From positions 1-40,286 of the forward strand of contig NW_014040077.1 in NCBI RefSeq assembly GCF_001186125.1: a stretch of 40,286 nucleotides of DNA, in the 5' to 3' direction. The translations under genes were made by a program, and so were the position numbers. This DNA comes from Sphaeroforma arctica JP610 (taxonomy: Eukaryota). The notes beneath the pieces were generated by a model. The model was given only the letters and a program-made list of their open reading frames with translations, ran no database searches and had not been told where the DNA came from. This document shows, piece after piece, positions 3,840 to 36,084 of this stretch (positions are counted from its first letter, which is position 1; each line of letters opens with the position of its first letter).

Positions 3840-4199
3840 ATTGACAGAAATGTTTTTACAATCACTTGAAATATGGATTCTTTTGTCATGATGTTCATCA
3901 TCTTTATATACATCACGCGTGTAGCCGTATACAAAACTGCGAAAGTCGAATGAAGTATTTTACTATTTTACAAAATGAATATCTAAAAAGAGTATACCGA
4001 ATAAAATTTAATCACCACTATTTCGTTATCTGCTATATAACATTCATATTTTGCTTTTTCTATTCATCAAAGAGAGAAAATACTCGGCGATAAAAATTTA
4101 TAGAAAATATCACGTAATGAAGTAAAGTTCAATAGATTAGAAATTTAGAGTTAAGTACACAAAGGACTAAAGTAAAAATTACTGAAATGAGCGAACATT

Positions 4200-9970: not shown

Positions 9971-12520
9971 GTGATTCTTTAACAATATACTATGGTACAT
10001 ATAATGAAACCAAGTAAGTGCGTTAGTGCATGTTTTACGAGTGACTGGGCAGAAAGCTCAGTCTGAGTTGCTATATTTATGACAACAAAACTGAATCGAT
10101 GCTTGGTATATTCGAATATTTAAGGGGTTTTGTGATTTAAAAGTTTACTTTGTCAGTACGATACTAGGAGATACGCAGATTATCTCAGTAGAGTTGTCCA
10201 TGGTATGGCAGTCGTGTGTGGAGAGATTTTGGATAGCGACTGCACCATTGTCAAAGTTCGTAATAAGTTATTCGGGATATTTTCAGTGTGCCAAAATCAG
10301 TGATAACACACTTGAGCGTATGATGTTGTGTTCTAGCGATTATACTCACATACTCAATACACGAGCATATTTATGACATTCTATCATTATAGATGTAGGC
10401 GTGATACAAAACAGAAAGCTTTTCTTGCAACACAAATATTGAACCCTAAAAAAAAGTTCAAAGAAAGGATATAAATGAAGAAATTTACAGACTACAACAC
10501 TCAGAATAGTAGTACAACACATATAGGTTGCAGTTACACGCGGTCCCAATGCTGTTCACGATCAATGGCGTCGTGCACTATATATAACTAGAAAAAGACT
10601 TGTGTGACCTTGGAAGGATATCATCTGAGCTTATTTGGTATAAGCAGTTGTTTATAGTATGGCGAAAATATTTGTACTCGTTAAGAAAATAAGTGATAAT
10701 GCGTGATGGATGGATGTTAATTCCGAGTACGTGAACGCTGAATTAGATCGACGATGNNNNNNNNNNNNNNNNNNNNNNNNNNNNNNNNNNNNNNNNNNNN
10801 NNNNNNNNNNNNNNNNNNNNNNNNNNNNNNNNNNNNNNNNNNNNNNNNNNNNNNNNNNNNNNNNNNNNNNNNNNNNNNNNNNNNNNNNNNNNNNNNNNNN
10901 NNNNNNNNNNNNNNNNNNNNNNNNNNNNNNNNNNNNNNNNNNNNNNNNNNNNNNNNNNNNNNNNNNNNNNNNNNNNNNNNNNNNNNNNNNNNNNNNNNNN
11001 NNNNNNNNNNNNNNNNNNNNNNNNNNNNNNNNNNNNNNNNNNNNNNNNNNNNNNNNNNNNNNNNNNNNNNNNNNNNNNNNNNNNNNNNNNNNNNNNNNNN
11101 NNNNNNNNNNNNNNNNNNNNNNNNNNNNNNNNNNNNNNNNNNNNNNNNNNNNNNNNNNNNNNNNNNNNNNNNNNNNNNNNNNNNNNNNNNNNNNNNNNNN
11201 NNNNNNNNNNNNNNNNNNNNNNNNNNNNNNNNNNNNNNNNNNNNNNNNNNNNNNNNNNNNNNNNNNNNNNNNNNNNNNNNNNNNNNNNNNNNNNNNNNNN
11301 NNNNNNNNNNNNNNNNNNNNNNNNNNNNNNNNNNNNNNNNNNNNNNNNNNNNNNNNNNNNNNNNNNNNNNNNNNNNNNNNNNNNNNNNNNNNNNNNNNNN
11401 NNNNNNNNNNNNNNNNNCTATAAGAAAGCATGGAGTGTAAACTATACCCTAATTCGTCGGCGGCAAGGATGCGGCTAGATAATCCACCGAAGTAAGCCAT
11501 GCAGCCATCATTGCCAGAGAGACGAGAAAGAAATATGTACAAAGCAGGCCACGGCTGTCCTTCGGATCACAACTAGTCCATTCAGACTTGCACTGAAGAA
11601 GAAAAATGTGTATGTCACGATGGTAGAGAGAGTTCTGCTCCACATCTCCACATAAGATAGTAATACAGCAGGCCCGCCATTTTCAATAGCACTTCCACCA
11701 TAACTATGTAATCATTTCAGTTAGACAACTTAACTCCCTTTACTAGAAATTACAACTCGACTTTGGCCACATCAGCCAAGAGTACGATATACCAGTCTTT
11801 TATAGGGGATAAAATTGAGAATCAGAGGCCTGTCATCAAGATTGTCATGTTTTGTAATAGGAGTATTGACTTATTTGTATGCTAAGTAACGGCAATTCCC
11901 ATAATAAGCGTGCCAAATTCAAGATTTGTGAGCATATAATTCTGGAACATAGAGTCAATTAGAACGTTATTTTTAAAGAAACAAAGAGTATCTCATCCAT
12001 ATAGATGAGCAATGCGAGACGACGGGAGGCATAAATCTAGGTTTAGTGAATAAGTTATATGACTGAACCAATCAACGTAGTACTAGATTAGTCGGTTCGT
12101 TCGGTCATTTGCCTTATTTACTACACAGGTACACTCATCTACTATTAATTGAGTTAAGCCAAAAAAAACCCCCCCCGAAGGCTGCCACCACTGATGTTAT
12201 GGTTACAAAAACTGCAGATTGCTGTATACTTGCTGACCTTTTTGAAGGAAAAATAAAGAACATGCGGGTATCGGGCTTACCATAGAGGAACGCTGCATCA
12301 AGGTTAGTGAGTATATTTAACCCTCTACTAAAGGTGTATTTACGTGTTCTACCGCCTTGCATATTTATGGCGAAATTACTGTTCATTTCTAATATTTGCC
12401 ATAGTCCAATATTCCAAACTATTGATATATTTTTGATAGATATTGATCTTTTACTGCTAACACTTCTCTAAAGTAGATATTGAGAAAGTATATAGTGAAC
12501 ACAGTCTTATACGAATGGGG

Positions 12521-12990
12521 TTAGCTTTCCCTAGATCTGTTTTCGGGTGAAGCGAGTGGAACGTCGCTGAGCAGACCAGAAGTATGTCGCAAATGCGTGG
12601 GCCGTGGAGTAGTTTTGGCTAGAATATCGGCCTGATTGTCGTATGAGGAGAAATAGTTGGCTTGAATAATACCGGCATGTTGGAGTTCTTTGTTATGATG
12701 CACCCGAATATCGATGATATGTTTCAAGTGTTTGGTCGGACCAGTAGATGCGATGGCGTGGATGGCTGATTTTTTTATCACGGTAGGCTATAGTTGAAGA
12801 AAGCGCAATAGTTTTGAATGTTTTACAACCACTGAATATATTTTACAGCCTCTGATGCGGTTAAATTCGGCAGTACTGGTGGACAGTGTGGGTTGGCGTT
12901 TGACTTTCCACCCGACAAGGATGCAGCTGATGCGAAGGATATATCTGATGGTTGAGCGGCGGGTGTCGAAGAAGGCGGCATAACCAGCAC
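12521..12990 (-). pseudogene. Copia RNase H domain
   Basis: Manual translation AGYAAFFDTRRSTIRYILRISCILVGWKVKRQPTLSTSTAEF, then ORF 12521-12781 SAIHAIAS..TKHLKHIIDIRVHH..QADILAK. Confidence 0.88.
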
Positions 12991-13408
12991 TAGGGATAAT
13001 ATTATTTATTTCAAAACAAAATTATAAGATATAATGTATGTCTATTATAATGTATGAACATATGGTATGGCTCTCATAGCCGTTGTAGTGGTTCGGGAAA
13101 GATCGATGGGAAGAAGTGGTCTGGAAATTTCCATTTGAAGCTTGGGCCAAGTGAGTTGACGATGGAGGATATGCGCTGAGTCAATTCGGGCCGGTGCTGA
13201 CAAAACACTGATACCATCGAATGTACCATGTATTCGCTTGCTGACCTACTAAGTAGCGTACCCACCTCTGTGGTACGGATGGGGTCTGCGCCGTGTAGTG
13301 CCGTGGAATGGGATAGTGCAGAGTACGAAATACCGAGTAGGACCAGGCTATCCGTCATAATTCGGTCGAGGAGCAAGAATGGAGGTGAGCCAATGCCGCA
13401 CCAGACCA
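12991..13408 (-). mobile_element. Unclassified ~420-bp insertion X, copy 1 (ORF 3' end plus AT-rich 3' UTR)
   Basis: Highly similar to 22765-23165. Encodes ...HRPELTQRISSIVNSLGPSFKWKFPDHFFPSIFPEPLQRL*, followed by an AT-rich tail with AATAAA. Interrupts copia just before the RNase H (D)ADYA-like motif. Confidence 0.65.
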
Positions 13409-14948: not shown

Positions 14949-15240
14949 ATGCAACATCAAACACGTGACAGACATATTTATCCTTCGTGTGTTCGGACGT
15001 GGGTAGTTCAACCAAATCAATGATAACCGGCGCCACGACTCGTCTTCTGATACGCTGCGTAGAGGTGCGTATCCGTAGCGCTTGATCCGGTTAACTTCGC
15101 AGTTGCTACATTCGTGATACACCTGAGATATATATTGCTTGAGGTTCGGGTGTACGATTCCGTACCTCTTGCAATCTATATCAGTTCTAACCTTATCCAT
15201 GTGCTTACGAGCATGATTTTGTCTTAACCACTTCAGAATC
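14949..15240 (-). pseudogene. Gypsy A integrase N-terminus (HHCC zinc finger and start of DDE core)
   Basis: ORF 14910-15554 contains ILKWLRQNHARKHMDK..LKQYISQVYHECSNCEVN..APLRSV..WRR. Truncated by LTR C. Confidence 0.85.
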
Positions 15241-15669: not shown

Positions 15670-16080
15670 CAACTGGACCTATTCGACATATAATAGTATG
15701 TCGCCAAGGCGTCTTATGGAATGCACGGGTACCCTGGTAGAGAAAAGTATCTACCTTTCTATCTACATAGATCGGCTCACATTGTATCATCGAGATCAAC
15801 TGTGGTAGCCATTTATCTGAGTGTCTTAGGGGACAACACAACGTGATGGTACCATCTTGAATATGTACATAATTTAGCAACTGTGGTATTAATAACCATG
15901 GAGGATTTGCCCAGGCATTCTCATTAGACAAGTCAATCTGGAATCCATCTCCTTTCGGATGTTCCAGTGTCCGGTACCTCGGCAGTTGTGCATTATGATG
16001 AGCGGCAAACATATCTATGGTATGTAGTCCATGTATGTTGTCTGCGATCTTAAACCACCTAGGATTGACCATCCAATCCG
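15670..16080 (-). pseudogene. Dam-like N6-adenine DNA methyltransferase domain (DIRS-type) in gypsy A pol
   Basis: DWMVNPRWF (~16078), IDMFAAHHNAQLPRY (16004-16018 for IDMFA), DGF, WANPPW (NPPW 15896-15907), TLCCP..WLPQL. Lies in the same ORF (15422-16498) as RNase H. Confidence 0.88.
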
Positions 16081-16139
16081 TAGCTAGTAACTCCCTAACC
16101 ATCTTATTAAGTCTGGTACGAAGTGAGACAACATGTCGG

Positions 16140-16500
16140 GTAAGTGATTGTGAATACCCGGTATATGTGTCATGCCACCGACTGACTAACTGTGAGTTAG
16201 GTTTCATCTTCTTTAGGTGTTCCAATGACTTCTGATCACATAGCACATCAAAGTGTGTGCCATATAGATAATCTTTAAAATGAGTGAGTGCAGTAACAAT
16301 AGCCAAAAGCTCTTGTTGCACGGTTGGGTAATTGATCTGAGACGAATTCATAGCTCTGCTAAAGAACTGTACATTTCCCGGTTTCCCATCAATCATTTGA
16401 TACAGAACGCCGCCGAGTGTCATGTCGGATGCATCTGTTGCTACCATAAATGGAATACCATCCTTTGGTGGCTGGACTACTGGTGCCTGTTGAACCACTG
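16140..16500 (-). pseudogene. Gypsy A RNase H
   Basis: FMVATDASDMTLGGVLYQ..FFSRAM..NYPTVQQELLAIVTALTHFKDYLYGTHFDVLCDQKSL. Confidence 0.92.
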
Positions 16501-16537
16501 TTTTGAGCTGCTTAAATGCGTCATCACAGTCTTTGGT

Positions 16538-17330
16538 CTACAGCCCGCCTAGTTTGCCTTTATGACATCTCAAATGTCCAAAGGGCTTTAAATATCTTGC
16601 CAGGTGTGGTACTCTGTTAGACAAAAAGTTCCCGAATCCGCACATGCTGTTGACATCCTTACCCGTGGTAGGAGTTCTCCAGTCTAGCAAGTGTCCGACC
16701 ATCCCGGGATCGATCATGATTCCATCCCCGGATACTCGGTAACCCAACAGTTGAATCTCGTTAACACCGAAGTGACATTTCTTACTGTTGATCTTAAAGT
16801 TGTGCTTGTTGAGTCTGTCTAGAACATCTCGCGCAACCTTGTCGTGCTACTCTTTGGTTTTGGTGAATATCACAATGTCATCAATGTATACTTGTACATT
16901 GTCCATGTCCATAGACAAGTCTTGCATAATTTGTTGAAAGAACGCAGGTAACATGTGTAACCCAAAGGGGGCACCTTTGAACGAATACTGCTGACCCTCC
17001 CAGGTAAAGGTGAAATACTTCCGATGTGGTCGGTAGATCTTCATCTGGTGGTAGCCCTGCGTCATGCCGATAGCGGAGAATATCTTAGCTCCCTCCATGC
17101 GCCTGAGTAGTTCGTTTATCCTTGGTAAGTGAAAATTGTGTGTCGGTATCAAAGCGTTAATTGGGCTCATAACCAAACACACTCGAACTTTCGAAGTGTC
17201 CCGTCAGAGTTGAATTGGTCGACGGCTAAAAGCACTAGGTTGACGGGAGTCGGTTCATAGTTGACTGCGATCACTCCGTCATCTAACCATGCTTCAACCT
17301 GTTCCCGTACGACCTGCTCATGATGCCATG
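16538..17330 (-). pseudogene. Gypsy A reverse transcriptase
   Basis: LPRINELL..IFSAI..QGYHQ..FTW..PFGL..PAFFQ..YIDD (16877-16888), then LGYRVSGDGI..GFGNF. Confidence 0.93.
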
Positions 17331-17579
17331 CAACATAAAAACGTGTAGGACACTTTAGCTTCGAGAAATCTACTCTCGTCAGGTCTAGACTAATGTATCC
17401 GTTATTGAATTTGAATTTAGCCCAGTCCATGATCCGAATCTTGTCATTCTCGAAAATCAAGTCCTTGAGTTTCTCTGTAAAGTGAGGGATCATCTCCTTC
17501 ACAGTTTTCGAAGGTTTACATTCTGGTTTCAACAAATTGTCGTCCGACTGATCCTTCTGTGGTTCAATGTTAGTAGGTA

Positions 17580-17890
17580 AGCCTGTAATTGTGATACCTA
17601 ATGACAATAAATCACCCATACCTACTATGAGATCATAGTCGGCTGAAGTGTTACATATGACTGCCTTAGTAACTGTAGTACGTTGGTCTGTCAATGTAAA
17701 CCTAAGATCGATTGCCATTTCTCTGCAAGTGATCTCTCTTTCATCAGCCAGTTTCAACATAGTTGGCTCTGACCTACGAGTAACGTCTGTGATTTTACAG
17801 AATCTAGAGGATATACATGAAATTTGAGAGCCCGGATCTAACAACGCTTTTATTTCATGTCCGTTAACTCGTACGGCAAGGATTACACGC
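17580..17890 (-). pseudogene. Gypsy A aspartic protease
   Basis: VRVNGHEIKALLDPGSQISCIS..LADE..YDLIVGMGDL. Confidence 0.9.
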
Positions 17891-17939
17891 TCGTCTTGAG
17901 GTGCGTCCTTTTGTCTTATTGACAAGACCCGGTATGTTT

Positions 17940-20717
17940 GTCACTTGACTGCAACTTCTGGTTTCACCTTACACGTATGCTTGTGGTAACCTCCAGTCCC
18001 GGTACAGTCGGCACACTTCTCGATAAAGTGCTTACACTTTTCTGCGTGCCTTCCATTCCATCTGCCATTCGGTTTATGTTGGGTCATTCGTCAATTGCAA
18101 TCAATCTCACTACAGTTCTTGACCTCCCTATGCCTGGGCTAAGGGTTGCCTACCGGCGGTCCATTTCTGTTGGTATGGTTACCCTTAGGGACGACATTGA
18201 TCTTGTTGCTGTCAGAACCATTTATATTTTTGTTCTTATTGCCACCCTTGTCAACCCCTTTGTGTACCTTCTGACCTCCATTAGTGAATTGAGAGTCTCG
18301 ACCATGGCAGATCCTCCGGTAAGATTGCCGTTGATCTTCTTCTGAGCATTAGTGACTTTCACCACGGAATTAGGGCGTTTGGTAAACGTCTGATCCGCTC
18401 TCGAGTAAAATTCTGCCTAGGTTAAGTCCGCTAGCTTCATTATACCGTAGGTAGGTCCCTCGATGGAGATCTCTCGTACCTTGTCCGGGTATGATTGATG
18501 CATATCGGCGTACAGAATCTCTTGATCTCTCCTATGTAGGTTTGACCCAAAGATTGTCTGCACCCATAGTACACACATTGATAGCTTATCAGGTGACATC
18601 TCCTGAGTCTGGGCCCGTGACATGTGTGTGTCCAACTCTAATAAGCCGGTGGTATCATGATCGATACAAGCAATTCCGGTCGAGGGTCCGTCGAAAATAA
18701 GAGGACGATCATCTCACTCTGCTCTTTCCACGTTTTCAGCTTAGTGATCGATTGGTTAGCCTTCTCTAACTTGTTGTACTTGGAAGAGGACGGCTTAAAG
18801 CTCTGCTGCGCTGCTTCGAACCATAGGTTCTTTCGTAGATTGGCTGTAAGCAAAATCTGTCCAAACTCTTTCAAAGACCTAGATAACAACGCCAGACTGC
18901 TAGTATCGATTGGATCCTTTCGGTCTTTTCGATCAGATCTATATGTCGTTGGTAGTTTGCCTATGTCCTTTATAAACTTCTTGCCTTCCACAGCCTTCTC
19001 GGTCTGAATCACTCTTTGTTCTGAACCAATCTTAATCTGGATATACGTAGTCATTGTCATATAACGACTAGCGGCATCAATCCTACCTAGATCCATTGCC
19101 TCGAGTGAAGCTGCCTCGGCCTTGTTCATTTGAACAGTGAATTCAGCAATTTTCAGATCCCTACTTGAGTGATCTGATCCCTTCTTTTCTGATTGCATCA
19201 GACCATGCAGTCAGTTATCTGCCTCATCCTTTGATCCATCGATCTGTTCAATATTAATGAACGCTTCGGATGGGACAGCATCTTTTGTCGTCTTTGGGAT
19301 AGCCGCTGGGGGCGAACTGTCTCCCGATGACGACAAGAATTTTCTCGCTTTCACCTGATCAGGTTTCGGCTCTTCCGTCGGTTTGTCCTTCTGAAATATC
19401 TCTGGGGCACTCTGTGGATTTCCTTCCGGAAATGAATTTGGATTAGACTCCTGTTCAGATGCCATTCGCGACATTGCTGTTGCGTCCAATTCAGGAGAGG
19501 GATGAGTTTCGGGTGATGAAGATCTGATTCTGTTTGCCTCTCCATTGTCTGACAACATCTCGAACGCCAATATGACTTTATAGAGTGCCAAATAGTTTGA
19601 TATCAAGTCGGGAAGATCTACCAGAAGATCCCGAATTGCGTACCAAATTAAGTATGCAAAACTTACATCTCCCCTAGTTCCGAATACCTCCGGCAGTATC
19701 TTTTAAAACTGACGGAAATTTTTGCGTACTTGCTTACCGTCGTCAGTTTTCATTTATTTTAGCCGTTTGTAATATTTGTTATCCCTAAACAAATCGTATC
19801 CAAACTTTCTTACCGCTGCATTCATAACATACCTCGGTGAGATAGTACCATCTAGTTTGGTCTTCAATACGTCCAGAAAGAACGTTCCATACGTATTTCG
19901 AAACAACCATGCCCTGTTGGCCCGCTGTCGGATCAACTCTCGTTGACCCTCCTCCTGAAGATCAATCTGTGCCTGGTATGAATTGCCCAGATCAAAGTTC
20001 TGTCGCCAAGCCGATCGGAGTGGTGTTTTGGGTATACGCAGGAATTGTGAGGCAATCCTGCTGCCCGAATCGTCGTCATGACGGTGAAATGTCTGGTCCA
20101 CATCATCCGGACCTATATCCACGAATCGCATTTGTTCTTCCGATACGTTGATTTGGGGTTGATCCAACAGTGCTGTTGGCGCATCCTCCGAGTCATCCTT
20201 CCCTGATTCGTCCTGACTTTGATCCTTCGCTGCGGCTTGCTTTTTCTTCCGCTGCTTAGTAGGTCTCAAATCATGTACCATTGGTAGGTAGTTCTTCAGG
20301 AAGGCTCTCCTATCTCTTGCTATCATGTGATAAGTAGGATCTCGCCTACGTGCTTTGCGCGTATCCACTGATGGAGATGGTACATCTGATTCCAGTGCAT
20401 GTCGGACTTCCTCTGAAGTTGAGTTGCCCGAGGAATGCGTTTTCTCGACCTTTCCCTTTCGAGATCTCGCCTTCTTCGCTGGTGGCTTCTGTGGCTCCGT
20501 AGTCACATTACCTCCGGATGCACCTATACCTGAGTCAGCCAACTACTTACGTTTTTGTTTAGTCGGAGTTGGTACTGGCGGTCTCGGCGTGATCTCAGAT
20601 ACGTCAGAGTCCACTGATGATGCCGGGGGTGTTTTTTTGCTTTCCATCGCCTCCAGTAAACCAATTTACTTTTGCAGCCTTAGCTACATTCGCTGCCTTC
20701 TTGTTACTTTTCGTCAT
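17940..20717 (-). pseudogene. Long gag/ORF1 region of gypsy A (fragmented)
   Basis: Consecutive minus-strand ORFs 20604-20717, 19754-20542, 19211-19606, 18638-19198, 18417-18635. The last two are conserved with element B (KDIGKLPTTYR..DPIDTS). Cys/His cluster at ~17965-18110. Confidence 0.7.
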
Positions 20718-20748
20718 AATATCGATAGCGTACATAAATTTAAAAATA

Positions 20749-21649
20749 TGTAAAAGTCGGTCTCCTCTAGGCTGACTATACGATATCAATACGTTTACGT
20801 TAATAAGACAATACGATAAACGTTAAAATGCAAAATGTTAAAAATAAGTTTAGCTTCAGCCCTTGGTAGTGAGCAAAAGATTAGGGGATTATAGACTGAG
20901 ACTATTGTCTATATGCTCTGCTCTAATCACTCACTACTTCGGCCTAGATTTATTTATGTTTTAGTTACTAAGATTAGATATCATTTCATTGGACGCATAT
21001 TTACATTTCACGCCTCGAAACAATTATCTACTCAAAATAACCAATAAAATAATCCCTAAGTCCAACTTAAGAAAAGAAAAAAGGAAATCAAAACACCAAG
21101 CTGGTGCAGTATATATCTGCAGCTAAACCCCATCACTTGGTACCTAGCTCCCCATCCCATATAAGGCATAGACGGGCACATCTAGTTGGCTGGCTAGGAG
21201 GAATCAAAACCAGGTTGTCCTAAATTCTAACAACTCTGATCATGTCCTTTTCTCAGTGGATTATCTTGCTCTGAGATTATTATCGATTATACCATAGGTT
21301 TGTACCAACAACCATTTCATGCCTGAGACCCTCTCTCATGGTACTCCCGTTAATTAGAGATTCTCAAGGTGTCACTTTCAGGTGTCAGATTTGTATCATT
21401 CCTATATTCTGTACAAATCTAATTTCAGTGGAAAAAAACCAATCTATATTTGGAAAACCACCTAATTGTCCACAGTAAAGTCCCATACTCTACTGAGTAC
21501 TATCACATATTCAGAATCTTAATATCTCAATTATTGTTCATGTCCAATACATTAAACGTATTCCAGTATTATAAGTATAAACGATAATACGTCAATACGT
21601 TTATAATATACGTTAACTGTGCAACTACTATTAGGAACCCGCTGATGCA
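20749..21649 (-). repeat. 5' LTR of gypsy A (~901 bp)
   Basis: Begins TGTAAAAGTCGGTCT on +, like LTR C TGTAAGATTCGGTCT. Shares blocks GGGATT..CTGAGAC..CTATA and GGCACATCT(A/G)GTTGGCTG with LTR C. Ends ..GATGCA at 21649, where copia sequence resumes. Confidence 0.75.
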
Positions 21650-21769
21650 GGTAAAGTGGCTGGTGGTGAACTTGTGGCTATCCGGGCAGACAGGGCAGAG
21701 ACAGCCGTCGGTGCGGTAGTCGAGCATTAGTGATGGCATCAGCGACTAGAGGGTTATTTTGAAAACGGT

Positions 21770-22690
21770 ATGTCAAGCCAAGATGAGGAGTCTATTTAAG
21801 ATACTGGAGTACGCGAAGGCCAGCTTGCCAATGTTGCTATAACGGGTTGTGCATGTAGCGTGCAGCAATGCGTGTCAACACCGAGGATATTGTTATGTAT
21901 CAATGAGTTCTCGGTATGCACATTTAAATGCAGAACCGGTGCTTTGAGAAACTGGGTCCAATGTGGCGAATGTAGGAGCGGGATGGCAGTTTGTCATGTC
22001 GAATCTCGAGGGCTTTCTTGATCTTATTATCTTGTCTGAGACTGATAGTGTCGTGAGTTGTGAGGACACGAACACTTATTTGCCTTTGCAGGTCGCCGAG
22101 ATCCTTACAACTAAATTCATGTTAGAGAAGAGACTAAACGCCGAGATAAAATTGATGGTGTTACCACAGAAGAATGTTTCCGGGTTTGCCATAAATAGGC
22201 AAAGGTCTGAAGCAGCTTGAACAAACCCCATGGCAAGAAGTTTAGATCGGATGAGTTCGTGCCATAATCGGCTCAGCAGTTTCAGGCCGTATAAACTTTT
22301 CTTCAGTTTCATAATTTGATCATCGGGGAGGCCGGTGGTGAACGAGCCAGAGGGGGTTTTATGTAGATTGACTGGTCGATATTAGCATAGAGATGAGCGT
22401 TGTCGACGTCGAGTTGTTCGGCATGTCATCCGGCAGAGACGGCAATGGCAGGTAGATGCATATGTCTCGTTGTAGTTAGGCAGAATTCGTGTTTTCGACT
22501 AAACCATCGACCATTTTTATCCTACATATCCATTTCCTAGTGACAGTGAAAGCGTCGTCGTGAATGTCATCAGGATGAATGAGTTCACAGTACATGCCGG
22601 CCCTACGAAGACTATCGAGTTCACGTTTGAATGATTCGCGCCAAAGATCAGCATCTTCCCCCTTTATGGCGGCACGGAGGGTAGTTGGGG
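21770..22690 (-). pseudogene. Copia reverse transcriptase (decayed, internally deleted)
   Basis: Manual translation: PTTLRAAIKGEDADLWRESFKRELDSL, QLDVDNA, MKLKKSLYGLK..W..L..MGFVQAASDLCLF, YRELI, HWQAGLRVLQYLK*TPHLGLTY. Confidence 0.9.
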
Positions 22691-22765
22691 TAAGTGGATT
22701 GGAATGTGCGGCATTACCGCCAGTGTAGAGTTTGTGAACCGTTCCATCGTAGAGCGCCTGTTGAT

Positions 22766-23200
22766 AGGAATAAAATTATTTATTTCTAAAAAGATAAGAT
22801 ACAATGTATGTATGTTACAATATATGGCTCTCATAGCCGTTGTAGTGGTTCGGGAAAGATCGATGGGAAGAAGTGGTCAGTAAATTCCCGTTTGAAGCTT
22901 GGGCCAATTGAGTCGACGATGGTGGATATGCGCTGAGTCAATTCGGGCCGGTGCTGACAAAACACTGATACCATCGAATGTACCATGTATTCGCTTGCTG
23001 ACCTACTAAGTAGCGTACCCACCTCTGTGGTACGGATCGGGTCTGCGCCGTGTAGTGCCGTGGAATGTGTTAGTGCAGAGTGCGAAATACCGAGTAGGAC
23101 CATGTTATCCGTCATAATTCGGTCAAGGAGCGAGGATGGGGATGAGCCAATGCCGTACCAGACCACAACGTTTGGGCACTAGAGGGTAAAGAAATGTGAG
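22766..23200 (-). mobile_element. Unclassified insertion X, copy 2
   Basis: Near-identical ORF 22831-23166 to that at 13074-13408. Candidate 7-bp TSD TGTTGAT at 22759-22765 and 23201-23207. Confidence 0.6.
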
Positions 23201-24399
23201 TGTTGATTGGAGTGGCGAGATCGTGTATGTGGTCGTCTTAATCAAGGATGTTCGAGGCTGTGGAGAGCGGCACTGGTGGTGGTACGAGCATGTTGAAGAA
23301 CATCTCGTCTGTACTGTTTGTCGGCTTTGTATTGTTTATGAGCATGTTTAACATGAGCTAATACTCGCTGATATTTATCGCGCAGGGTGAGTTCCTTGGA
23401 CGTGGTGTCCATGGAAGCGTCGGAGAGTGAGGAAGAATGAAGATAGTGAACGTGACGATAAATGTTCTAGAGATCTGTAGCCCAAGTGACGTTTGGAGAG
23501 CGTGTGGGGGGAATGTTGAAAGGCGAGATATCACTGGATTAAGGGAACGGAGGGCTCCCCTGGCTGCTGAGGGGTGGGAAGTGTGGAAGTAGGCTTCCCT
23601 GATTGCTGCGTAGCGGGTGTCATAGAAGGTACCCTGGGTGACTGTGTGGTGAGTAGGGGACCGTCCCCTGGTTTCGTGACATCTGTGGGGGTCAATAGCT
23701 TCCCTGGTTGCATGACACCGGTGGGTGTGGAGGGAATGTGTTGTGCCACTGGTTGGTGAAGGACGGGGAGTGTGAAATTAGGCTCCCCGGGTTGCTGCGT
23801 AGCAGGTGTCATAGGAGACACCCTGGGTGGCTGTGTGGTGGGGTTAGGGGACAATTTCCTGGTTGCGTGACATGCGTGTATCTAACGAGCGCGTTGACGA
23901 GTGATGCGCACGTTGCCCGGTTTGAAGAAGGCCCTTTAAGGTACGGGATGTCCGGTGTTTAGCAAGGTGGCTGGCAAGCAGGTTGTTGATGATATTTTCT
24001 AAAGAAGGGACAGAGGTAGTGATCGAGAAGGAAGGTGTGGGGAGAAGTGGGGTGAGCGATGGTGTGGGAACTGGCGTGTGTGTAGGAAGGGCATAGTCGG
24101 GATGTAGAGGAGATATTGGCGGAGAAGTGATGGGAGCAGGGTGAACGGTGGTGGCCTGGAGTGACGGGTGTTGGAAGTAACGGTGCAGTGCTGTTGGAAG
24201 AGGATGGTGTAGATATGGTATTAGGGTTGAGTTGGAGCGAAAGTGTAAGTTTGCGTATGGTGGGGACATGGCGGACGGGGTATGGAAAAAGGGACTGGCG
24301 TCGTCCCAGCCATGGTCCACGTCGGGAAGAGTTCTTAACATCGCGGGAACGGCATTTTTTCTTCTTCCATACTTTAGACTGAGAATGAGGAAATCGTCA

Positions 24400-25611
24400 T
24401 TGTACCTGGATGAGCGATCGTGACCGAGGTATACGCCGAGTATTGTGGGGTCATCGAGTTTGCCCTGTTGGTCCTGATTCACGAATGCGACTTGACAACC
24501 ATATACATGTATGTTCTTAAGGCGAACGGTGGGGAATTCGCCGTAAAATATTTCCCGGGATGGTTATTGGTCAGAGTTGTGCTTGATAAGTTGGTCAGTC
24601 TTAGTTATAGTCTCGAGTAGAATAGCTTCAGCCCACATACATTCGTGTCGTTGAGCATTTTTGAGCATGTAGTTCATGATGTTCTTGATACTGCCGTTGG
24701 TGCGCTCTATCAAGCCGTGAAGGACAGGGGAGTTAGTGGGGATAAACGTGACCTTAATGTGAGACAGGGTATTGATACGTTGGGAATTCTTGAGAGATAA
24801 AATCGCCGCCCTGGTCGCACTTAATTTCGGTGAATTTACTGAGATATGTTTTCCCGATATCGGTATAAAACTGGGCCAATGTGTGGTACGCATCATTCTT
24901 GATCCTGAGTGGGTAGACGAACCACGTACTTGATGTTAGATGTGTACCCATTGAGAGAGGAGGAGAGGCCAGTTCTAAATCTACGTGAAAGACAGTACCG
25001 AGAGGTGGAAGATAAGTGTGGTCTTTGTGGGTGTGCGAGATAGGCTCGCTGACGCATTTTGCCTGTACCACAGGGTGTGCAGAAACTCAGCGGACGAGGG
25101 TGAGCGAGAACATCGGCTTCGGCGGACAGTAGCTTGGTAATGGGCGGGACAGCAGATGTAGTGTTGCCAACACGTGCGATGTTCAACATGTGAATTGAAT
25201 TGGAAGAGAGTTTGTATATAGTTGCGTGTGTTTGGTGTGAGAGGAAACACCATGGTGATGAGGACGTTTTCTCGTTCGAATTTGAGAAGTGTCTTTCGCC
25301 ATGTTGGCTTGCGAAAAGGAATGTTACCATACAAGTGTTTGTTGTGTTGACGCCATGATTGCGTGAATATATCGTGTAAGGGTGTGCCAGGGTCGAGACT
25401 GCAGTATCTGGGAACCTGAGCGTTGTGAGCCGTAGCGAAAAGGTCGATATCAAGCGGTCCAAAGACATCAACTACATATGTTTGGAAAAGGTCAGAGTGG
25501 AGTTTCTAGTCGTCATATGAAGGTGAAGGTATCGGAGATGGTGTGATATTGCTGTTGTGTAGGATGCCGCATTTTGACATCCGGATGTGCGTGACCAAGC
25601 ATTGTATGCCA
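24400..25611 (-). pseudogene. Copia integrase (GAG-pre-integrase zinc finger, DDE core, SH3-like), interrupted by an MTase domain
   Basis: WHTMLGH 25591-25611, CTPCGTGK 25058-25081, VFHVDL, EIKCDQGGDF, GLIERTNGSI..WAEAI, GKLDD..GVYLGHD. Frameshifted. Confidence 0.88.
25200..25514 (-). pseudogene. Dam-like N6-adenine DNA methyltransferase domain (DIRS-type) within copia pol
   Basis: Manual translation in the frame of ORF 24981-25334, extended upstream: DD*KLHSDLFQTYVVDVFGPLDIDLFATAHNAQVPRYCSLDPGTPLHDIFTQSWRQHNKHLYGNIPFRKPTWRKTLLKFERENVLITMVFPLTP. IDLFA at 25434-25448, NIPF at 25314-25325. Confidence 0.85.
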
Positions 25612-25759
25612 GTTGGCGAGTGTGTGTGTACTAAGTGGGGCTAGTGCGTGTTGGCCGGCAGTGTTTTGGACGCGATTGATAGTATGACCGGCTTGTTGGA
25701 TATGGCATTCGGTAGGTTATGATTCGTCGACCGCAGGTGGAAAGTAAATAATGTAGCGT

Positions 25760-25980
25760 GACGTTGAAGGAGTTGAACGGAGAGTATACTTTGGGTGTCT
25801 GTGGGCATGATGAGGACGCGGCCAAGACCTGGAAGAAGGCCGTGTTGGAGTAGAGTAATTTGCCTTTTGTCAGGGAACTCGACGATAAAATTGCCGTGTT
25901 CGAAACTACTAACGCCGAATGTGGTAGCGCGGATATGTACCATGGCCCCAGAGTCGATGAGGGATGCCCAGAGATGATCA
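25760..25980 (-). pseudogene. Copia aspartic protease
   Basis: WASLIDSGAMVHI..G..L..VLIMP..SILSV in ORF 25641-26096. Confidence 0.8.
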
Positions 25981-26056
25981 GCGGTTGAGGGTCCAGTTGT
26001 AGCTGTCTGTAGAGTATGAAGACGATAGCGTCTAACAGGCGGAGGTATAAAAGACT

Positions 26057-26327
26057 TGGTACAGTGGGAGTGTCGAGTAGATGGTATGTGAACCACCGGT
26101 TACAGGGGCGCCGTAATAACACTGCATGCATGCAGTATCGTTAGGACCAACACGGGTACATTTGCTATATTTGAGGTAAGAGCGGTCGACACCTGGTACA
26201 GTGGGAGTGTCGAGTAGATAGTATGTGAACCACCGGTTACAGGGGCGCCGTAATATCACTGCATGCATGCAGTATCGTTAGGACCAACACGGGTACATTT
26301 GCTATATTTGAGGTAAGAGCGGTCGAC
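26057..26327. repeat. 137-bp tandem duplication in the copia gag zinc-knuckle region
   Basis: TGGTACAGTGGGAGTG...GCGGTCGAC occurs at 26057 and 26194 with only a few mismatches. Confidence 0.92.
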
Positions 26328-27000
26328 GGGACAGGTGCGACCGATGTAGTCGTGTGATGGCCAAGGGTCAAACATAGGGAATATTTGCGTTCATGGTGTG
26401 TGCTGTGGGGAATCTTGGTGTGAAGGATGTTGAGGCTGGAAGGAATGGGCTGGGCGATAAGATGATGGTCGCCTTCAAATTTCAAGGTGAGGTGATAGAC
26501 TTCCTCCAGACTGATTGTATCCGTGCCCTTGGCAAATACTGTAGAACGTAGTAGGTTATAGTTATCGCTACGACTGTATAATAAAGCACAGATAAAATAC
26601 TTATCTGGTATTACTTCACCCACGTCGAGTAACTCTTGGCGTATTTCCTCGAGTGTTTGCATGCTTGTTTCAGTAGAGCCCGTAGCAGTGAAGTATGTTA
26701 AGCGTTTTATACCATCTCAGAAGCGACCATGGCTGCCAGTGTTATTAGTGATGCAGATGTAATTGAAGAACTCAGAGAGGGATTTAGAAATGTGACCCTT
26801 GTAGACGGCGTTGATTAATTTATCACTAATAGAGATATTGAGTATGCGACGGTTTTTGGCATCGGCGAGCATGTCTGCGCCTTCACCGATGGACGTCATG
26901 ACATCGAGAATATAGACTATGCAGTGTACCAAAATGTTCATGTTCCATTTTGAGACCAGTGTACCAGATGCCAAAATCGGCGTACCCTTTTGTAGTTCGT
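26237..27000 (-). pseudogene. Copia gag
   Basis: LEEIRQELLDVGEVIPDKYFICALLYSRSDNYNLLRSTV (copia gag-type L..G..I.D.....LL.SL...Y pattern). N-terminal PIL..W..I motif and degenerate CCHC knuckles (YSLCLTLGHH, SKCTRVGPNDTAC). Confidence 0.8.
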
Positions 27001-31564: not shown

Positions 31565-31759
31565 CAATGGCCTCTGTGCAATGCTTGTATTATATTTTCT
31601 TAGACAAAGTATACTTAGACTTTATAAGTTACTCGGTTACTCTATTACGTTTCGGTTTAGGTCCTTGAGGTCCCTGATAGTGGATGGGACATTTCTTAGT
31701 GCCTTTAGGAGGCACATACATTCCATGATCTTTTAAACTTGTGATCCGATATTAAGAGC

Positions 31760-32740
31760 ACTTGAACCATCACCAAAGTTAACTTCGTAAGTTCCGCTCT
31801 TCTTATTGGCCACTGAAATCTTGAATGGTCTAATGTATTCAGCTGTATGCACAGTTGTATCGGAGTTGCGAGCCATGATGATGACTATATCGCCCACCTC
31901 AAACTCGACTATCTTCTTCGAATCATTTCATCGCTTGTATCTTTTCTTGAGTGCGATATCCTTCATCTCTCTCAAGCTAGGAAAGACAAAATCTCTGGTA
32001 CGACGTATCTTCTCTAACCATGGTAGCACATGATCTTCCTGAGAATTCTTGTTGAAAAGTACTAGTAGTTCACTATAACGGCCTCTGAAATAGTGAGCGG
32101 GTGTTCTATCAGTGACTGTATCCGGTGTCTCGTTCATTTGTGTTTGTACCCAGTTAATTGAGTACATGTCACAATCGTCTAGTAACGCTCCACACATGAA
32201 CTTCTTCATCTTTCTGTGCGTACCTCGATTGCACCTTGTGTCTGATGCTTATATAGTACACCCATCTTTTGGCATGATCCCGCAACAAGTAATAGTGTTG
32301 TCATGACGTCTCCTGTAACTCACTACCGTTGTCGGGTCGATACATACAGTAGCTGGCCAGTCGAAATCTGCGAAACATTTATATATGCACTCAGCCGCAG
32401 TTTGTATTGATTTGTCTTTCAGATATAATAGTACATTCTATTTTGAAGCAACATCAAACACTGACAGACATACTTATCTTTCATGTGTTCGGACGTGGAT
32501 AGCTCAACCAAATCAATGACAACCCTGCGCCATTGCTCCTCTTCTGATACGCTTTGCAATTGTGCCTACCCGTAGCGCTTGATTCGATTAACTTTGCAGT
32601 CGTTGCATTCGTGATACACCTGAGATATATATTGCTTAAGCTTTGCCGTACCTTTTACAATCTTTCTCAGTCCTAACCTTATCCATGTGTTTAAGCGCAT
32701 GAATCTGCCTTAGCCACTTCAGAATATCTTCTTCCGGTGA
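31760..32740 (-). pseudogene. Gypsy B DDE integrase with HHCC finger and GPY/F-like module
   Basis: IHALKHMD..YHECNDC, VIDLVEL..FDVASK, MNETPDTVTDRTPAHYFRGR, FEVGDIV..YIRPFKI..GTYEV. Confidence 0.85.
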
Positions 32741-33169
32741 ACTTGCTATATCAAAGTCTGGAGGTGATGATTCCACTACTACATCACTTGGACTTGAAGA
32801 CTCGTCTGGTCCAATTTCGCCTGAAAGATCGGCCGTGTGAATTCTACCAATGTTCGCCCTGTCCATTAGTTGAGTTACATGATCGTATACATCTGGAAAA
32901 TCGTTCATCAACTGCTGAAGTAATTTTGTCTCGGCTTCGTATGCAGTTGCTCTGTCAGAACATATCTTCTTGTAGGATACTTTTGCTAGTGTTGAGTTCC
33001 TCTTTGATTCTGTAGGATCAGATTGTACCTCAGTGACGCATACTGCAGGTGCGTGTGTTGTCGCAGCCTCTCATCGAGACTTAGGTATCAAGAGTGGAAT
33101 CCTGCATTCTTCAACCTAACGTTTGAAGGTCTCCAATTGTGTCCATTTGGATGTTCCAACTAGTCCTAT

Positions 33170-34915
33170 TCGACATATAATTGTATGTCGCCAAGGCGAA
33201 TTTTGGACTGCACGGGTACCCTGGTAGAGGACAGTATCTATCTCTCTATCCACATATATAGGCTCACATTGTAACATCTATGTCAACTGTGGGCGCCATT
33301 TATCTGAATGTCTTAGGGAACAACACAGCGTGCTGGTAGCATCTTATATAGTACATAATTTAGCAACTGTAGTATCAACAACCACTGTGAATTCGCCCAT
33401 GTGTTCTCGTCTGTTAAGTTGATTTGAAACGCATGCCATCTGGATGTTCCAGAGTCCGGTATCGTGGCAGTTGCGCATTATGATGAGCAGCAAACATATC
33501 AATGTAATAAGCCGAGCCTCCACATTAGACTCTTATGTATAAACGTACTCTTAAGCAGTACGCAAATTATAAACGTACTCTTAATAGTACGAGGAACTTA
33601 AGTCTCCTAAATGTACTCTTAATAGTACGAGGAACTTAAGTCTCCTAAATGTACTCTTAATAGTACNNNNNNNNNNNNNNNNNNNNNNNNNNNNNNNNNN
33701 NNNNNNNNNNNNNNNNNNNNNNNNNNNNNNNNNNNNNNNNNNNNNNNNNNNNNNNNNNNNNNNNNNNNNNNNNNNNNNNNNNNNNNNNNNNNNNNNNNNN
33801 NNNNNNNNNNNNNNNNNNNNNNNNNNNNNNNNNNNNNNNNNNNNNNNNNNNNNNNNNNNNNNNNNNNNNNNNNNNNNNNNNNNNNNNNNNNNNNNNNNNN
33901 NNNNNNNNNNNNNNNNNNNNNNNNNNNNNNNNNNNNNNNNNNNNNNNNNNNNNNNNNNNNNNNNNNNNNNNNNNNNNNNNNNNNNNNNNNNNNNNNNNNN
34001 NNNNNNNNNNNNNNNNNNNNNNNNNNNNNNNNNNNNNNNNNNNNNNNNNNNNNNNNNNNNNNNNNNNNNNNNNNNNNNNNNNNNNNNNNNNNNNNNNNNN
34101 NNNNNNNNNNNNNNNNNNNNNNNNNNNNNNNNNNNNNNNNNNNNNNNNNNNNNNNNNNNNNNNNNNNNNNNNNNNNNNNNNNNNNNNNNNNNNNNNNNNN
34201 NNNNNNNNNNNNNNNNNNNNNNNNNNNNNNNNNNNNNNNNNNNNNNNNNNNNNNNNNNNNNNNNNNNNNNNNNNNNNNNNNNNNNNNNNNNNNNNAAAAG
34301 AGCTTGTATTAAATTATTTAAAATACAAATAAAAACCAATGTATTATCTCAATTGATCTTGATATTTTAGACTGACCGGAGGCCGTATTTCTACAAATAT
34401 AGGTTTCTAGGGACTATTAACGTTACTTAGTTGATCCTTCGATAAGCCAACCAGATGTGCCAGTCTGATGAAGGCTAAGTCGGTAATTCTTGAGAGTGGC
34501 AAGTTATTGGTTAAGACAATAACTAAAGACATCAAGAGTATTTTTTTTAAATTTCTTTTTTCTAAAGATAGGATTTTATGAGTCTCTCGGATTCGCCCCA
34601 GAATAGAGCGACAACGAAACACTAAATAAAATCCCTTCGGCGGAAAAAGTACTGAGAGGATTATATATAGGCAATGTCTCAGCCTCACAATCCCTCAGAG
34701 TATTGCTGTTTTCACGAGGCAAACCTAACTTTATTAAACGTCTCATTTCGTTTATTTATATCGATATTTACACGATATAGAATTTACCTACGCGTTTATT
34801 TATTCTAAGGCATTAGTATCGCCTTTATTAGACCGAATCTTACATCAATGGTATGTGGACACACATATGTTGTCTGCAATCTTGAACCACCTAGGATTGG
34901 CCATCCAATCGTAGA
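33170..34915 (-). pseudogene. Gypsy B adenine MTase domain, split by a solo LTR within the IDMFA motif
   Basis: HHNAQLPRYRTLEHP and WANSQW (decayed NPPW) at 33380-33485. The N-terminal part (DW..NPRWF) lies at 34845-34915. Confidence 0.82.
33503..34844 (+). mobile_element. Family C LTR insertion (solo LTR with internal gap), 4-bp TSD TCAA
   Basis: TCAA-TGTAATAAGCCGAGCCTCC...GACCGAATCTTACA-TCAA. Removing it restores colinearity with A. A 38-bp tandem repeat precedes the N-gap. Confidence 0.88.
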
Positions 34916-35352
34916 TAGTGACTCCCGGACCATCTTATTGAAGTCTGGTACGCAGCGTGAAAGCATATCCGGCAAGTGATTATGTACCCCCGGTATATGT
35001 GTAAATCCAAATGGAAATTTCGCGATCGTATCGTGCCATCGACTGACCAATGTCAATTGGGTTTCATGTTCTTTAAATGTTGCAACGATTTCTGATCGCA
35101 CATTACATTGATATATGTACCGTATAGGTAATCCTAAAAATGAGCGAGTGCAGTCACAATAGCCAATAGCTCTTGTTGCACCGTCGGGTAGTTGATTTGT
35201 GACGAACCCATAGCCCTACTAAAGAATTGCACGTATCTCGGTTTCCCATCTATCATTTGATACAGCACGCATCCTATCGCCATGTCGGATACATCTGTAG
35301 CCACCATGAACGGAACTCCATCCTTTGGTGGCTGCACTACGGGAGCTTGCTG

Positions 35353-36084
35353 TGTAAAAGCCGGGCCTCCACATTATAATCCTGTATTATAAACGTACTC
35401 TTAAAAGTACGTAAACTCAGTTTTCCTTAAATGGTTTTCAACGGTTTTATTAATTAAATACCTTCTCCATTTTACATATCAGATATTTGGACAAGGCCAT
35501 TAAATGGCCTCAGTAAAATATCAACTTTATGATTTGGACTAGTTCTATTAATAAAACTATATTTACTTTCCAAATCTATTTCTATCTGAATACTTCGGTA
35601 GCGAGATGGCTCAACCAAACATAGGTTTCTTAGGACAATTAGCGTTGCTTAGTTTATCCTCCGTTCAGCCAACCAGATGTGCCAGTCTGATGAATACTAG
35701 TCGGTATTCCTGGATAAGTGGCAAGTTATTGGTTAAATAATACAATAATTATGGACATCAAGAGTATTTTTTATTTTTATTTTTATTTTTTCTATTTATT
35801 TTTCTAAAGATAGGATTTCATGAGTCTCTCGGATTCGCCCTAACGAAACATAGTCATAGTTTCTAGTAGAGTCCCTTCGGCGGAAACAGTACTGAGAGGA
35901 TTACATATAGGCAATGTCTTAGCCTCACAATCCCTCAGAGTATTGCTGTTTTCACGAGGCATACCTAACTTTACTAAAAGACTCATTTCGGTTATTTACT
36001 CTTTGATTTTACTACACTTAGACTTGACCTAAGCGTTTAATTACTCTAAGGCGTTAGTACCGCCTTGATAGACCGAAACTTACA
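35353..36084 (+). mobile_element. Family C solo LTR (732 bp), 4-bp TSD GCTG
   Basis: GCTG-TGTAAAAGCCGGGCCTCC...GACCGAAACTTACA-GCTG. Interrupts B between RT and RH. Confidence 0.92.

What the first reader, a model, noticed from the sequence alone, without database searches (positions are those of the whole stretch)
15670..25514. Convergent acquisition: the same MTase family fused to the integrase N-terminus in two unrelated LTR superfamilies in one locus
Seen: gypsy IDMFAAHHNAQLPRY versus copia IDLFATAHNAQVPRY. The motifs are shared but the remaining sequence is divergent, so this is not a recent local copy. Although copia and gypsy order their domains differently, the MTase lies at the N-terminal end of integrase in both. 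Inference: repeated selection in this host for an integrase-tethered adenine MTase, for example to mimic host 6mA-marked active chromatin, evade silencing, or mark self. This would be a TE-host epigenetic conflict system.
Basis: inference. Interest (0 to 1): 0.88.

Follow-up and report, generated by a model that had tools for sequence, protein, structure and literature searches.

The report
Copia integrase with embedded adenine methyltransferase
Two decayed jumping genes side by side each carry an adenine-methyltransferase domain: the gypsy-type one belongs to a kind described in a 2026 preprint, while the copia-type one, found in several diverged copies, has the domain wedged inside the zinc finger of its integrase, so it would travel with the integrase and likely methylate the element's new DNA copy.

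Summary
Both motifs are real Dam-like (PF05869) domains. The scan noted such a gypsy before on another genome. The new part is the copia. Its Dam sits not in front of the integrase but inside the HHCC zinc finger, between HH and CxxC. Two Sphaeroforma arctica proteins (P0004, P0015) and two further contigs share the linkage, so it is a family, not a one-off. There is no nucleotide match to the neighbouring gypsy. The copia Dam is as conserved between copies as the integrase core (61-63%) and folds like PCIF1/T4 Dam. The preprint's main text never mentions copia, and seven literature searches found no copia-Dam. The donor (DIRS or gypsy) is unresolved: five trees split 3:2 and no AU test rejects either. 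Every copy seen is broken or partial; activity and substrate are untested. Verdict: new variant of a known kind, interest 0.57.

The parts
26237..26716 (-). Copia gag remnant
   Evidence: Retrotran_gag_2 E 5e-4
25641..26099 (-). Copia protease ORF (LIDSGA motif at 25961-25944)
   Evidence: Motif and position; C-terminal part resembles the start of P0015; motif named from recall, no Pfam hit
25591..25611 (-). First half (HH) of the copia integrase zinc finger, WHxxLGH
   Evidence: the homologous stretch of P0015 hits gag_pre-integrs profile positions 14-34 of 67 (E 0.16, weak) and stops there
25166..25511 (-). Dam-like N6-adenine methyltransferase inserted in the zinc finger; this copy has a stop at its first Trp codon and lacks 80 nt near 25180 relative to P0004, which shifts the frame
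   Evidence: PF05869; 61% identical to P0004 over 102 aa and 63% to P0015 over 75 aa; deletion size; motif IV is NIPF
25058..25165 (-). Spacer helix and second half (CxxC-GK) of the zinc finger
   Evidence: spacer 61% identical over 28 aa to the residues that follow the MTase in frame in P0004; predicted helix 151-162 in the P0004 model
24400..24993 (-). Copia integrase core and SH3-like domain, frameshifted
   Evidence: 55% (80 aa) and 77% (26 aa) identical to the rve part of P0015; rve_3 E 0.12; SH3_retrovirus E 1e-3
22076..22381 (-). Copia reverse transcriptase remnant
   Evidence: RVT_2 E 2.5e-5
17167..17940 (-). Gypsy 1 protease ORF
   Evidence: Asp_protease_2 E 3.5e-6
16166..17203 (-). 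Gypsy 1 RT and RNase H, broken by stops and frameshifts
   Evidence: RVT_1, RT_RNaseH
15674..16078 (-). Gypsy 1 Dam-like methyltransferase (NPPW), in frame with RNase H
   Evidence: PF05869; 66% identical to intact polyproteins P0001 and P0002; dN/dS about 0.16 against gypsy 2
15099..15215 (-). Gypsy 1 integrase HHCC; the core is cut off near 14951 by an inserted repeat
33161..33503 (-). Dam domain of a second gypsy copy (outside the finding's range), split from its first residues by an insertion

Best explanation
A low-copy, decayed Ty1/copia family, likely of an ichthyosporean host, carries a transposon-type Dam/PCIF1-like methyltransferase domain inserted between the HH and CC halves of its integrase zinc finger, so the domain would stay part of the mature integrase and likely methylates adenines in the element's own cDNA, which host AMT1 would then maintain as transcription-permissive 6mA. 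Shown: the architecture, several diverged copies, conservation equal to the integrase core, no recent copying from the neighbouring gypsy. Predicted: the fold. Inferred: protease cannot release the domain without splitting the zinc finger; integrase supplies the DNA binding that this short Dam lacks; the mark benefits new insertions. The neighbouring gypsy is an ordinary member of the published ichthyosporean DAM-LTR kind.
For: P0015 has protease end, WHxxLGH, a 24-residue linker and the Dam N-half in one frame, then a copia integrase core. P0004 has the Dam to its end and, in frame, the spacer that leads to CxxC in the window. They lie on different S. arctica contigs. Two more contigs at about 80% identity join Dam pieces to the zinc-finger CC part or to the integrase core, seen in 2 of 4 runs and 3 of 4. 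One 3004-nt contig at single-copy depth spans HH-Dam-CC-core without differences, so the window is not a mis-assembly (some runs may be the window's source). Same pair window/P0015: Dam 63%, integrase core 55% and 77%, pre-integrase piece 41%. Base composition of the Dam matches its copia flanks, not the gypsy. AF2 model pLDDT 83; best structural matches PCIF1/CAPAM Z 10.9 (rmsd 3.2, 136 aligned), T4 Dam 8.6, E. coli Dam 8.2. The preprint reports 6mA, more methylated DAM-LTR insertions and higher DAM-LTR expression in S. arctica.
Against: No intact copia-Dam polyprotein was found; the layout is pieced together from three broken or partial copies. The zinc-finger call rests on recalled motifs plus one weak Pfam hit (E 0.16). 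TE Dams gave no 6mA in E. coli (preprint), and Iyer et al. judged DIRS MTases likely inactive. Motif IV is NIPF, seen in 3 of 152 rows against NPPW/NPPF in 110. The top fold match is an RNA cap methyltransferase. The 6mA data concern gypsy elements, not this copia. The host is inferred from relatives.
Confidence: 0.5

Rival explanations
1. Same fusion, but the enzyme acts on RNA or an RNA-DNA hybrid (cap-adjacent or internal adenosine of the element's RNA inside the particle), like PCIF1.
For: PCIF1/CAPAM ranks first in both fold searches; Iyer et al. place DIRS MTases in the PCIF1 clade; no activity on E. coli DNA, and the preprint itself raises hybrids.
Against: Feature neighbours are phage Dam clusters, 30 of 30 hits; T4 Dam and E. 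coli Dam rank second and third; DAM-LTR insertions carry more DNA 6mA; a seat inside integrase suits DNA better (inference).
Confidence: 0.17
2. The domain is catalytically dead and serves integrase as a nucleic-acid or chromatin-binding module, for example a reader that steers integration to 6mA-marked regions.
For: Iyer et al. call DIRS MTases likely inactive; negative E. coli assay; altered motif IV and a long branch; copia elements have captured a reader domain before (CopiaMBD).
Against: Motif I and the motif IV Asn are kept in all three copia copies; NIPF also occurs in an intact chromodomain DAM-LTR, P0018, and NIPY-type motifs work in Erm/KsgA enzymes (recalled).
Confidence: 0.2
3. A neutral passenger: a Dam fragment landed in one copia, and the chimera made a few copies before dying.
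For: Few copies, all broken or partial; none found outside Sphaeroforma among the 150 hits listed.
Against: Copies are about 40% diverged in protein yet the Dam is as conserved as the integrase core; the insertion is one whole domain with linkers, in frame on each side in P0015 and P0004.
Confidence: 0.1
4. On origin only: the copia took its Dam long ago from a gypsy DAM-LTR in the same host lineage (one capture, then shuffling), not independently from a DIRS element.
For: 2 of 5 free trees place it on the LTR side, unsupported; forcing it with the neighbour gypsy family is never rejected (p-AU 0.29, 0.51, 0.43); second-best non-copia hit of P0004 is the gypsy P0018, which shares NIPF.
Against: 3 of 5 free trees place it among DIRS (in 46 and 47 the DIRS rows were picked partly for likeness to it); none makes it sister to the neighbour family; motif I-IV spacing is 40 as in 55 of 81 DIRS rows, against 36 in the neighbour family and 33-36 in 17 of 23 LTR rows.
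Confidence: 0.4

Closest known systems
DAM-LTR retrotransposons, ichthyosporean lineage (Fernandez-Moreno et al., bioRxiv 10.64898/2026.05.21.726589)
   Same: Gypsy elements here match: Ty3/gypsy order, Dam in pol, no chromodomain hit in the intact relatives P0001/P0002, relatives in Abeoforma whisleri. Same proposed role in 6mA chromatin.
   Different: All DAM-LTRs in the preprint are Ty3/gypsy-like and were classed with RVT_1; 'copia', 'Ty1' and 'PF07727' occur 0 times in the main text. The copia here has RVT_2, and its Dam is inside the integrase zinc finger. Supplements were not visible.
DIRS retrotransposon methyltransferase domain (RT-RH-MT)
   Same: Same domain family; same motif I-IV spacing as the copia Dam; most hits of the profile search are DIRS-like (88 of 151).
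   Different: DIRS use a tyrosine recombinase and carry the MT after RNase H; here it is in a DDE integrase.
CopiaMBD (de Mendoza et al. 2019, PMC6673714)
   Same: A copia family that took an epigenetic domain into pol.
   Different: That is a host-derived 5mC reader in arthropods; this is a putative adenine writer. I did not establish where the MBD sits in pol.
PCIF1/CAPAM and T4 Dam
   Same: Best structural matches to the predicted copia domain.
   Different: 11-12% identity; the copia domain is much shorter and has no separate recognition domain; substrate unknown.

Membership tests
Ty1/copia | Order gag-PR-IN-RT-RH | tested here: met
   gag 26716, PR 25961, IN 25611-24400, RT 22381, on one strand; RH only as a decayed trace near 21700
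Ty1/copia | RVT_2-type RT and copia-type gag | tested here: met
   RVT_2 E 2.5e-5 and Retrotran_gag_2 E 5e-4, both under gathering score; P0015 neighbours in the Atlas include gag_pre-integrs/rve clusters
Ty1/copia | Paired LTRs and target-site duplication | tested here: inconclusive
   No LTR pair found in the window; the 3' end is decayed and interrupted
Ty1/copia | Contiguous HHCC (GAG-pre-integrase) domain | tested here: not met
   HH and CC are separated by the Dam domain: 530 nt in the window even with 80 nt missing
Ty3/gypsy DAM-LTR | PR-RT-RH-Dam-IN in one pol (gypsy element) | tested here: met
   Window in pieces; intact in P0001 and P0002 at 66% identity
Ty3/gypsy DAM-LTR | RVT_1 gypsy RT (copia element) | tested here: not met
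   The copia element has RVT_2 and IN before RT
Eukaryotic TE Dam family (PF05869-like) | Sequence and fold similarity | tested here: met
   Pfam Dam E about 1e-3 for P0004 and P0015; Atlas 30 of 30 Dam clusters; fold matches
Eukaryotic TE Dam family (PF05869-like) | NPP catalytic triplet | tested here: not met
   Copia has NIP in the window and P0004; gypsy 1 has NPP
Eukaryotic TE Dam family (PF05869-like) | N6-adenine methyl transfer | not testable with these tools
   Needs an assay
Eukaryotic TE Dam family (PF05869-like) | Descent from a DIRS donor | tested here: inconclusive
   Trees and AU tests unresolved

The most novel reading that the evidence does not exclude
A Ty1/copia lineage captured an adenine methyltransferase independently of the gypsy DAM-LTRs and built it into the integrase zinc finger, making an obligate integrase-methyltransferase that writes 6mA on the cDNA or target site at integration. 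That would be a third retroelement superfamily with Dam and the first architecture that pins these enzymes to the integration step, explaining why free domains show no activity.
Probability: 0.3. Interest if true: 0.8.

Novelty: new variant of a known kind. Interest (0 to 1): 0.57.

Why it matters
What retrotransposon Dam domains do is open: they were called inactive in 2016 and showed no activity as free domains in 2026, yet DAM-LTR insertions carry more 6mA. A copia in which the domain is wedged inside the integrase zinc finger points to the pre-integration complex as the place of action and gives a direct test: assay the domain fused to integrase, on cDNA ends, hybrids and RNA. It also suggests that Dam surveys with an E 1e-5 cut-off and RVT_1-based classing miss a superfamily (inference: these domains score only E about 1e-3 in my Pfam scans).

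Tried and rejected
No whole genome is held for this window, so no genome census or AMT1 search was possible. Word-index searches with the copia Dam and with the copia SH3 region found nothing (weak evidence). Metagenome scans gave no copia relative: none, one ordinary DIRS element (L001). Viral contigs: none. No RNA holder was listed, so expression is untested. A sequence-profile search of PDB gave only chance hits. A complex prediction of the HH and CC halves with Zn was not available, so no result. Rejected: an apparent shared C-terminal motif between copia and gypsy Dam is out of frame in the copia, after the 80-nt deletion; and profile A2 still contained those residues, searches did not. 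The first spacing count had a faulty pattern and was redone. Rejected: mis-assembly and recent local recombination. The careful search did not finish (quick tree shown); two AU tests did not finish or were skipped.
Full report
OBSERVATION. The window is repeat-rich eukaryotic DNA. Two broken LTR elements lie on the minus strand. Gypsy 1 runs PR (17940-17167), RT, RNase H, Dam (16078-15674), a linker and the integrase HHCC (15215-15099), and is cut near 14951 by an inserted repeat. The copia runs gag (26716), PR, integrase, SH3 and RVT_2-type RT (22381). Both quoted motifs are present and both ORFs hit Pfam Dam weakly. The two domains share a 26-residue BLASTP match and no nucleotide match over 17 nt. 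The copia Dam has the C-rich, CpG-neutral composition of its own flanks (CpG o/e 1.06 against 1.17 and 1.01), unlike the gypsy Dam (0.68).

THE GYPSY IS KNOWN. Intact relatives P0001 and P0002 (66% identity) have RT-RH-Dam-linker-IN in one ORF. Three further hits are named Abeoforma whisleri proteins. The preprint 10.64898/2026.05.21.726589 (whole main text read; supplements not visible) describes DAM-LTRs, including a Ty3/gypsy lineage in Pirum, Abeoforma and Sphaeroforma arctica, an association with AMT1 (9 of 13 species), more 6mA and expression on DAM-LTR insertions, and no activity of the domains in E. coli. A rough codon count between the two gypsy copies in the window gives dN/dS 0.16 for Dam, 0.06 for RNase H, 0.05 for one RT part (the other was saturated) and 0.32 for the linker. 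In the gypsy the Dam directly follows RNase H, as in DIRS, and ends 145-196 residues before the integrase HHCC; whether it stays on integrase after cleavage is unknown.

THE COPIA IS THE NEW PART. Its Dam lies between WHxxLGH (25611-25591) and CxxC-GK (25081-25058), the two halves of the copia integrase zinc finger (motifs recalled). A profile search of 1.84 billion representatives gave 2250 hits at E 0.001, of which 150 were listed. Of the 151 proteins then held, flank similarity classed 88 as DIRS-like and 19 as gypsy-like (one of these, P0060, groups with DIRS), left 42 unassigned, and 2 were set as copia-type by hand. P0015 carries the protease end, WHxxLGH, a 24-residue Pro/Thr-rich linker and the Dam N-half in one frame, then a copia integrase core; its gag_pre-integrs hit covers profile positions 14-34 of 67 only (E 0.16). 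P0004 carries the Dam to its end and in frame the spacer that leads to CxxC in the window. Both are S. arctica JP610 proteins on different contigs. The window copy has a stop at the start of the Dam, frameshifts, and 80 nt fewer than P0004 near 25180. Contigs laid at 80% likeness show two more copies: one joins Dam 25292-25212 to the zinc-finger part 25123-25051 with 134 letters between instead of 88, and one holds Dam motif I and the integrase core (2 of 4 runs; 3 of 4). Their loose ends, translated by hand, differ from P0004 and P0015 at those places, so up to five copies are seen. A single 3004-nt contig spans HH-Dam-CC-core unchanged (some of these runs may be the window's source). Between the window and P0015 the Dam is 63% identical, the integrase core 55% and 77%, the pre-integrase piece 41%. 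The host is likely Sphaeroforma or a relative; this is inferred from these hits. Hits ranked below 150 were not seen, so copia-Dam in other species is not excluded.

FOLD. P0004 folded with 58 rows gives pLDDT 83 and pTM 0.76. Foldseek ranks human PCIF1/CAPAM first (E 3.9e-4). VIA-align ranks zebrafish CAPAM Z 10.9, T4 Dam 8.6, E. coli Dam 8.2. Atlas feature neighbours are all Dam clusters. Motif IV is NIPF in the window and P0004, and in one intact chromodomain DAM-LTR, P0018.

ORIGIN. The copia Dams form a long-branch clade with full support in all five trees. They fall among DIRS and on the LTR side, never with strong support and never sister to the neighbour gypsy family. Rows: one search used 152 (one short protein dropped); searches used 61 and 36, with DIRS rows chosen partly for likeness to P0004; searches used 37, with every fifth DIRS row and the out-of-frame tail removed. 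AU tests reject nothing: with the neighbour family p 0.29, 0.51, 0.43; with the wider ichthyosporean-type group 0.40, 0.49; with all LTR rows 0.56, 0.48. Motif I-IV spacing is 40 in 3 of 3 copia rows and 55 of 81 scored DIRS rows, but 33-36 in 17 of 23 scored LTR rows (36 in the neighbour family; the other 6 have 38-43); a shorter internal spacing is intermediate (copia 24, DIRS mostly 26, neighbour 22). This leans mildly away from the neighbour family. So two superfamilies carry the domain at different sites, which needs two insertion events, but whether the donors were separate is open.

MECHANISM. Shown: architecture, copy number, conservation. Inferred: a domain inside the HHCC cannot be cut free without splitting the zinc finger, so it would ride on integrase into the pre-integration complex. 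These short Dams lack part of the recognition region (preprint), so integrase may supply DNA binding. Methylated cDNA could then be maintained by AMT1 and favour transcription, as the preprint proposes for gypsy; 6mA tracks with transcription in AMT1 species, ichthyosporeans included (PMC12695648, passages). Rivals: an RNA or hybrid substrate like PCIF1; a dead domain used for binding (Iyer et al., PMC4738411, passages); a neutral passenger.

NOVELTY. The preprint's main text has no 'copia', 'Ty1' or 'PF07727'. Seven searches (listings only unless cited) turned up no copia with Dam. Related precedents are DNMT capture by DIRS, LINE and gypsy (PMC5890265, passages) and MBD capture by copia (PMC6673714, abstract start and passages). 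Subscription papers, Repbase and the preprint's supplements were not searched and could hold it. The scan's own notes hold one gypsy-Dam case on another genome and nothing by sequence or place.

VERDICT. Gypsy half already known; copia half a new variant with an informative architecture, limited by broken copies, one host lineage and no activity data. Interest 0.57.

Noticed in passing
window 31700-39000 (-): Second gypsy DAM-LTR copy, 72-80% identical in nucleotides to gypsy 1, with integrase core; its Dam is split by an insertion of the repeat family that also truncates gypsy 1 near 14951.
   Followed up: partly
window 12500-13050 (-): A separate copia-like RNase H remnant (motifs recalled; no Pfam hit), probably a second copia element.
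   Followed up: no
window 22823-23166 and 12991-13408; also about 21450-21730: Very high-copy short repeats inserted in the copia; hundreds to thousands of contigs lie on them.
   Followed up: no
proteins P0025 and P0092: Unusual order: Exo_endo_phos - Dam - RVT_1 - RNase H - Integrase_H2C2 in one 2100-2400 aa ORF, from unnamed ENA/JGI records for P0025; may match the preprint's Dam-LTRs with mixed features or be another placement.
   Followed up: no
proteins P0020 and P0040: Dam near the N-terminus of the ORF with no RT before it, P0020 followed by a protease-like stretch (read by eye); another possible placement of the domain.
   Followed up: no
window 26054-26327: 137-nt tandem duplication at 98% identity in the gag zinc-knuckle region of the copia.
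   Followed up: no
window 2622-3959 (-): 445-aa Ser/Pro-rich ORF without a Pfam hit, possibly a host exon.
   Followed up: no
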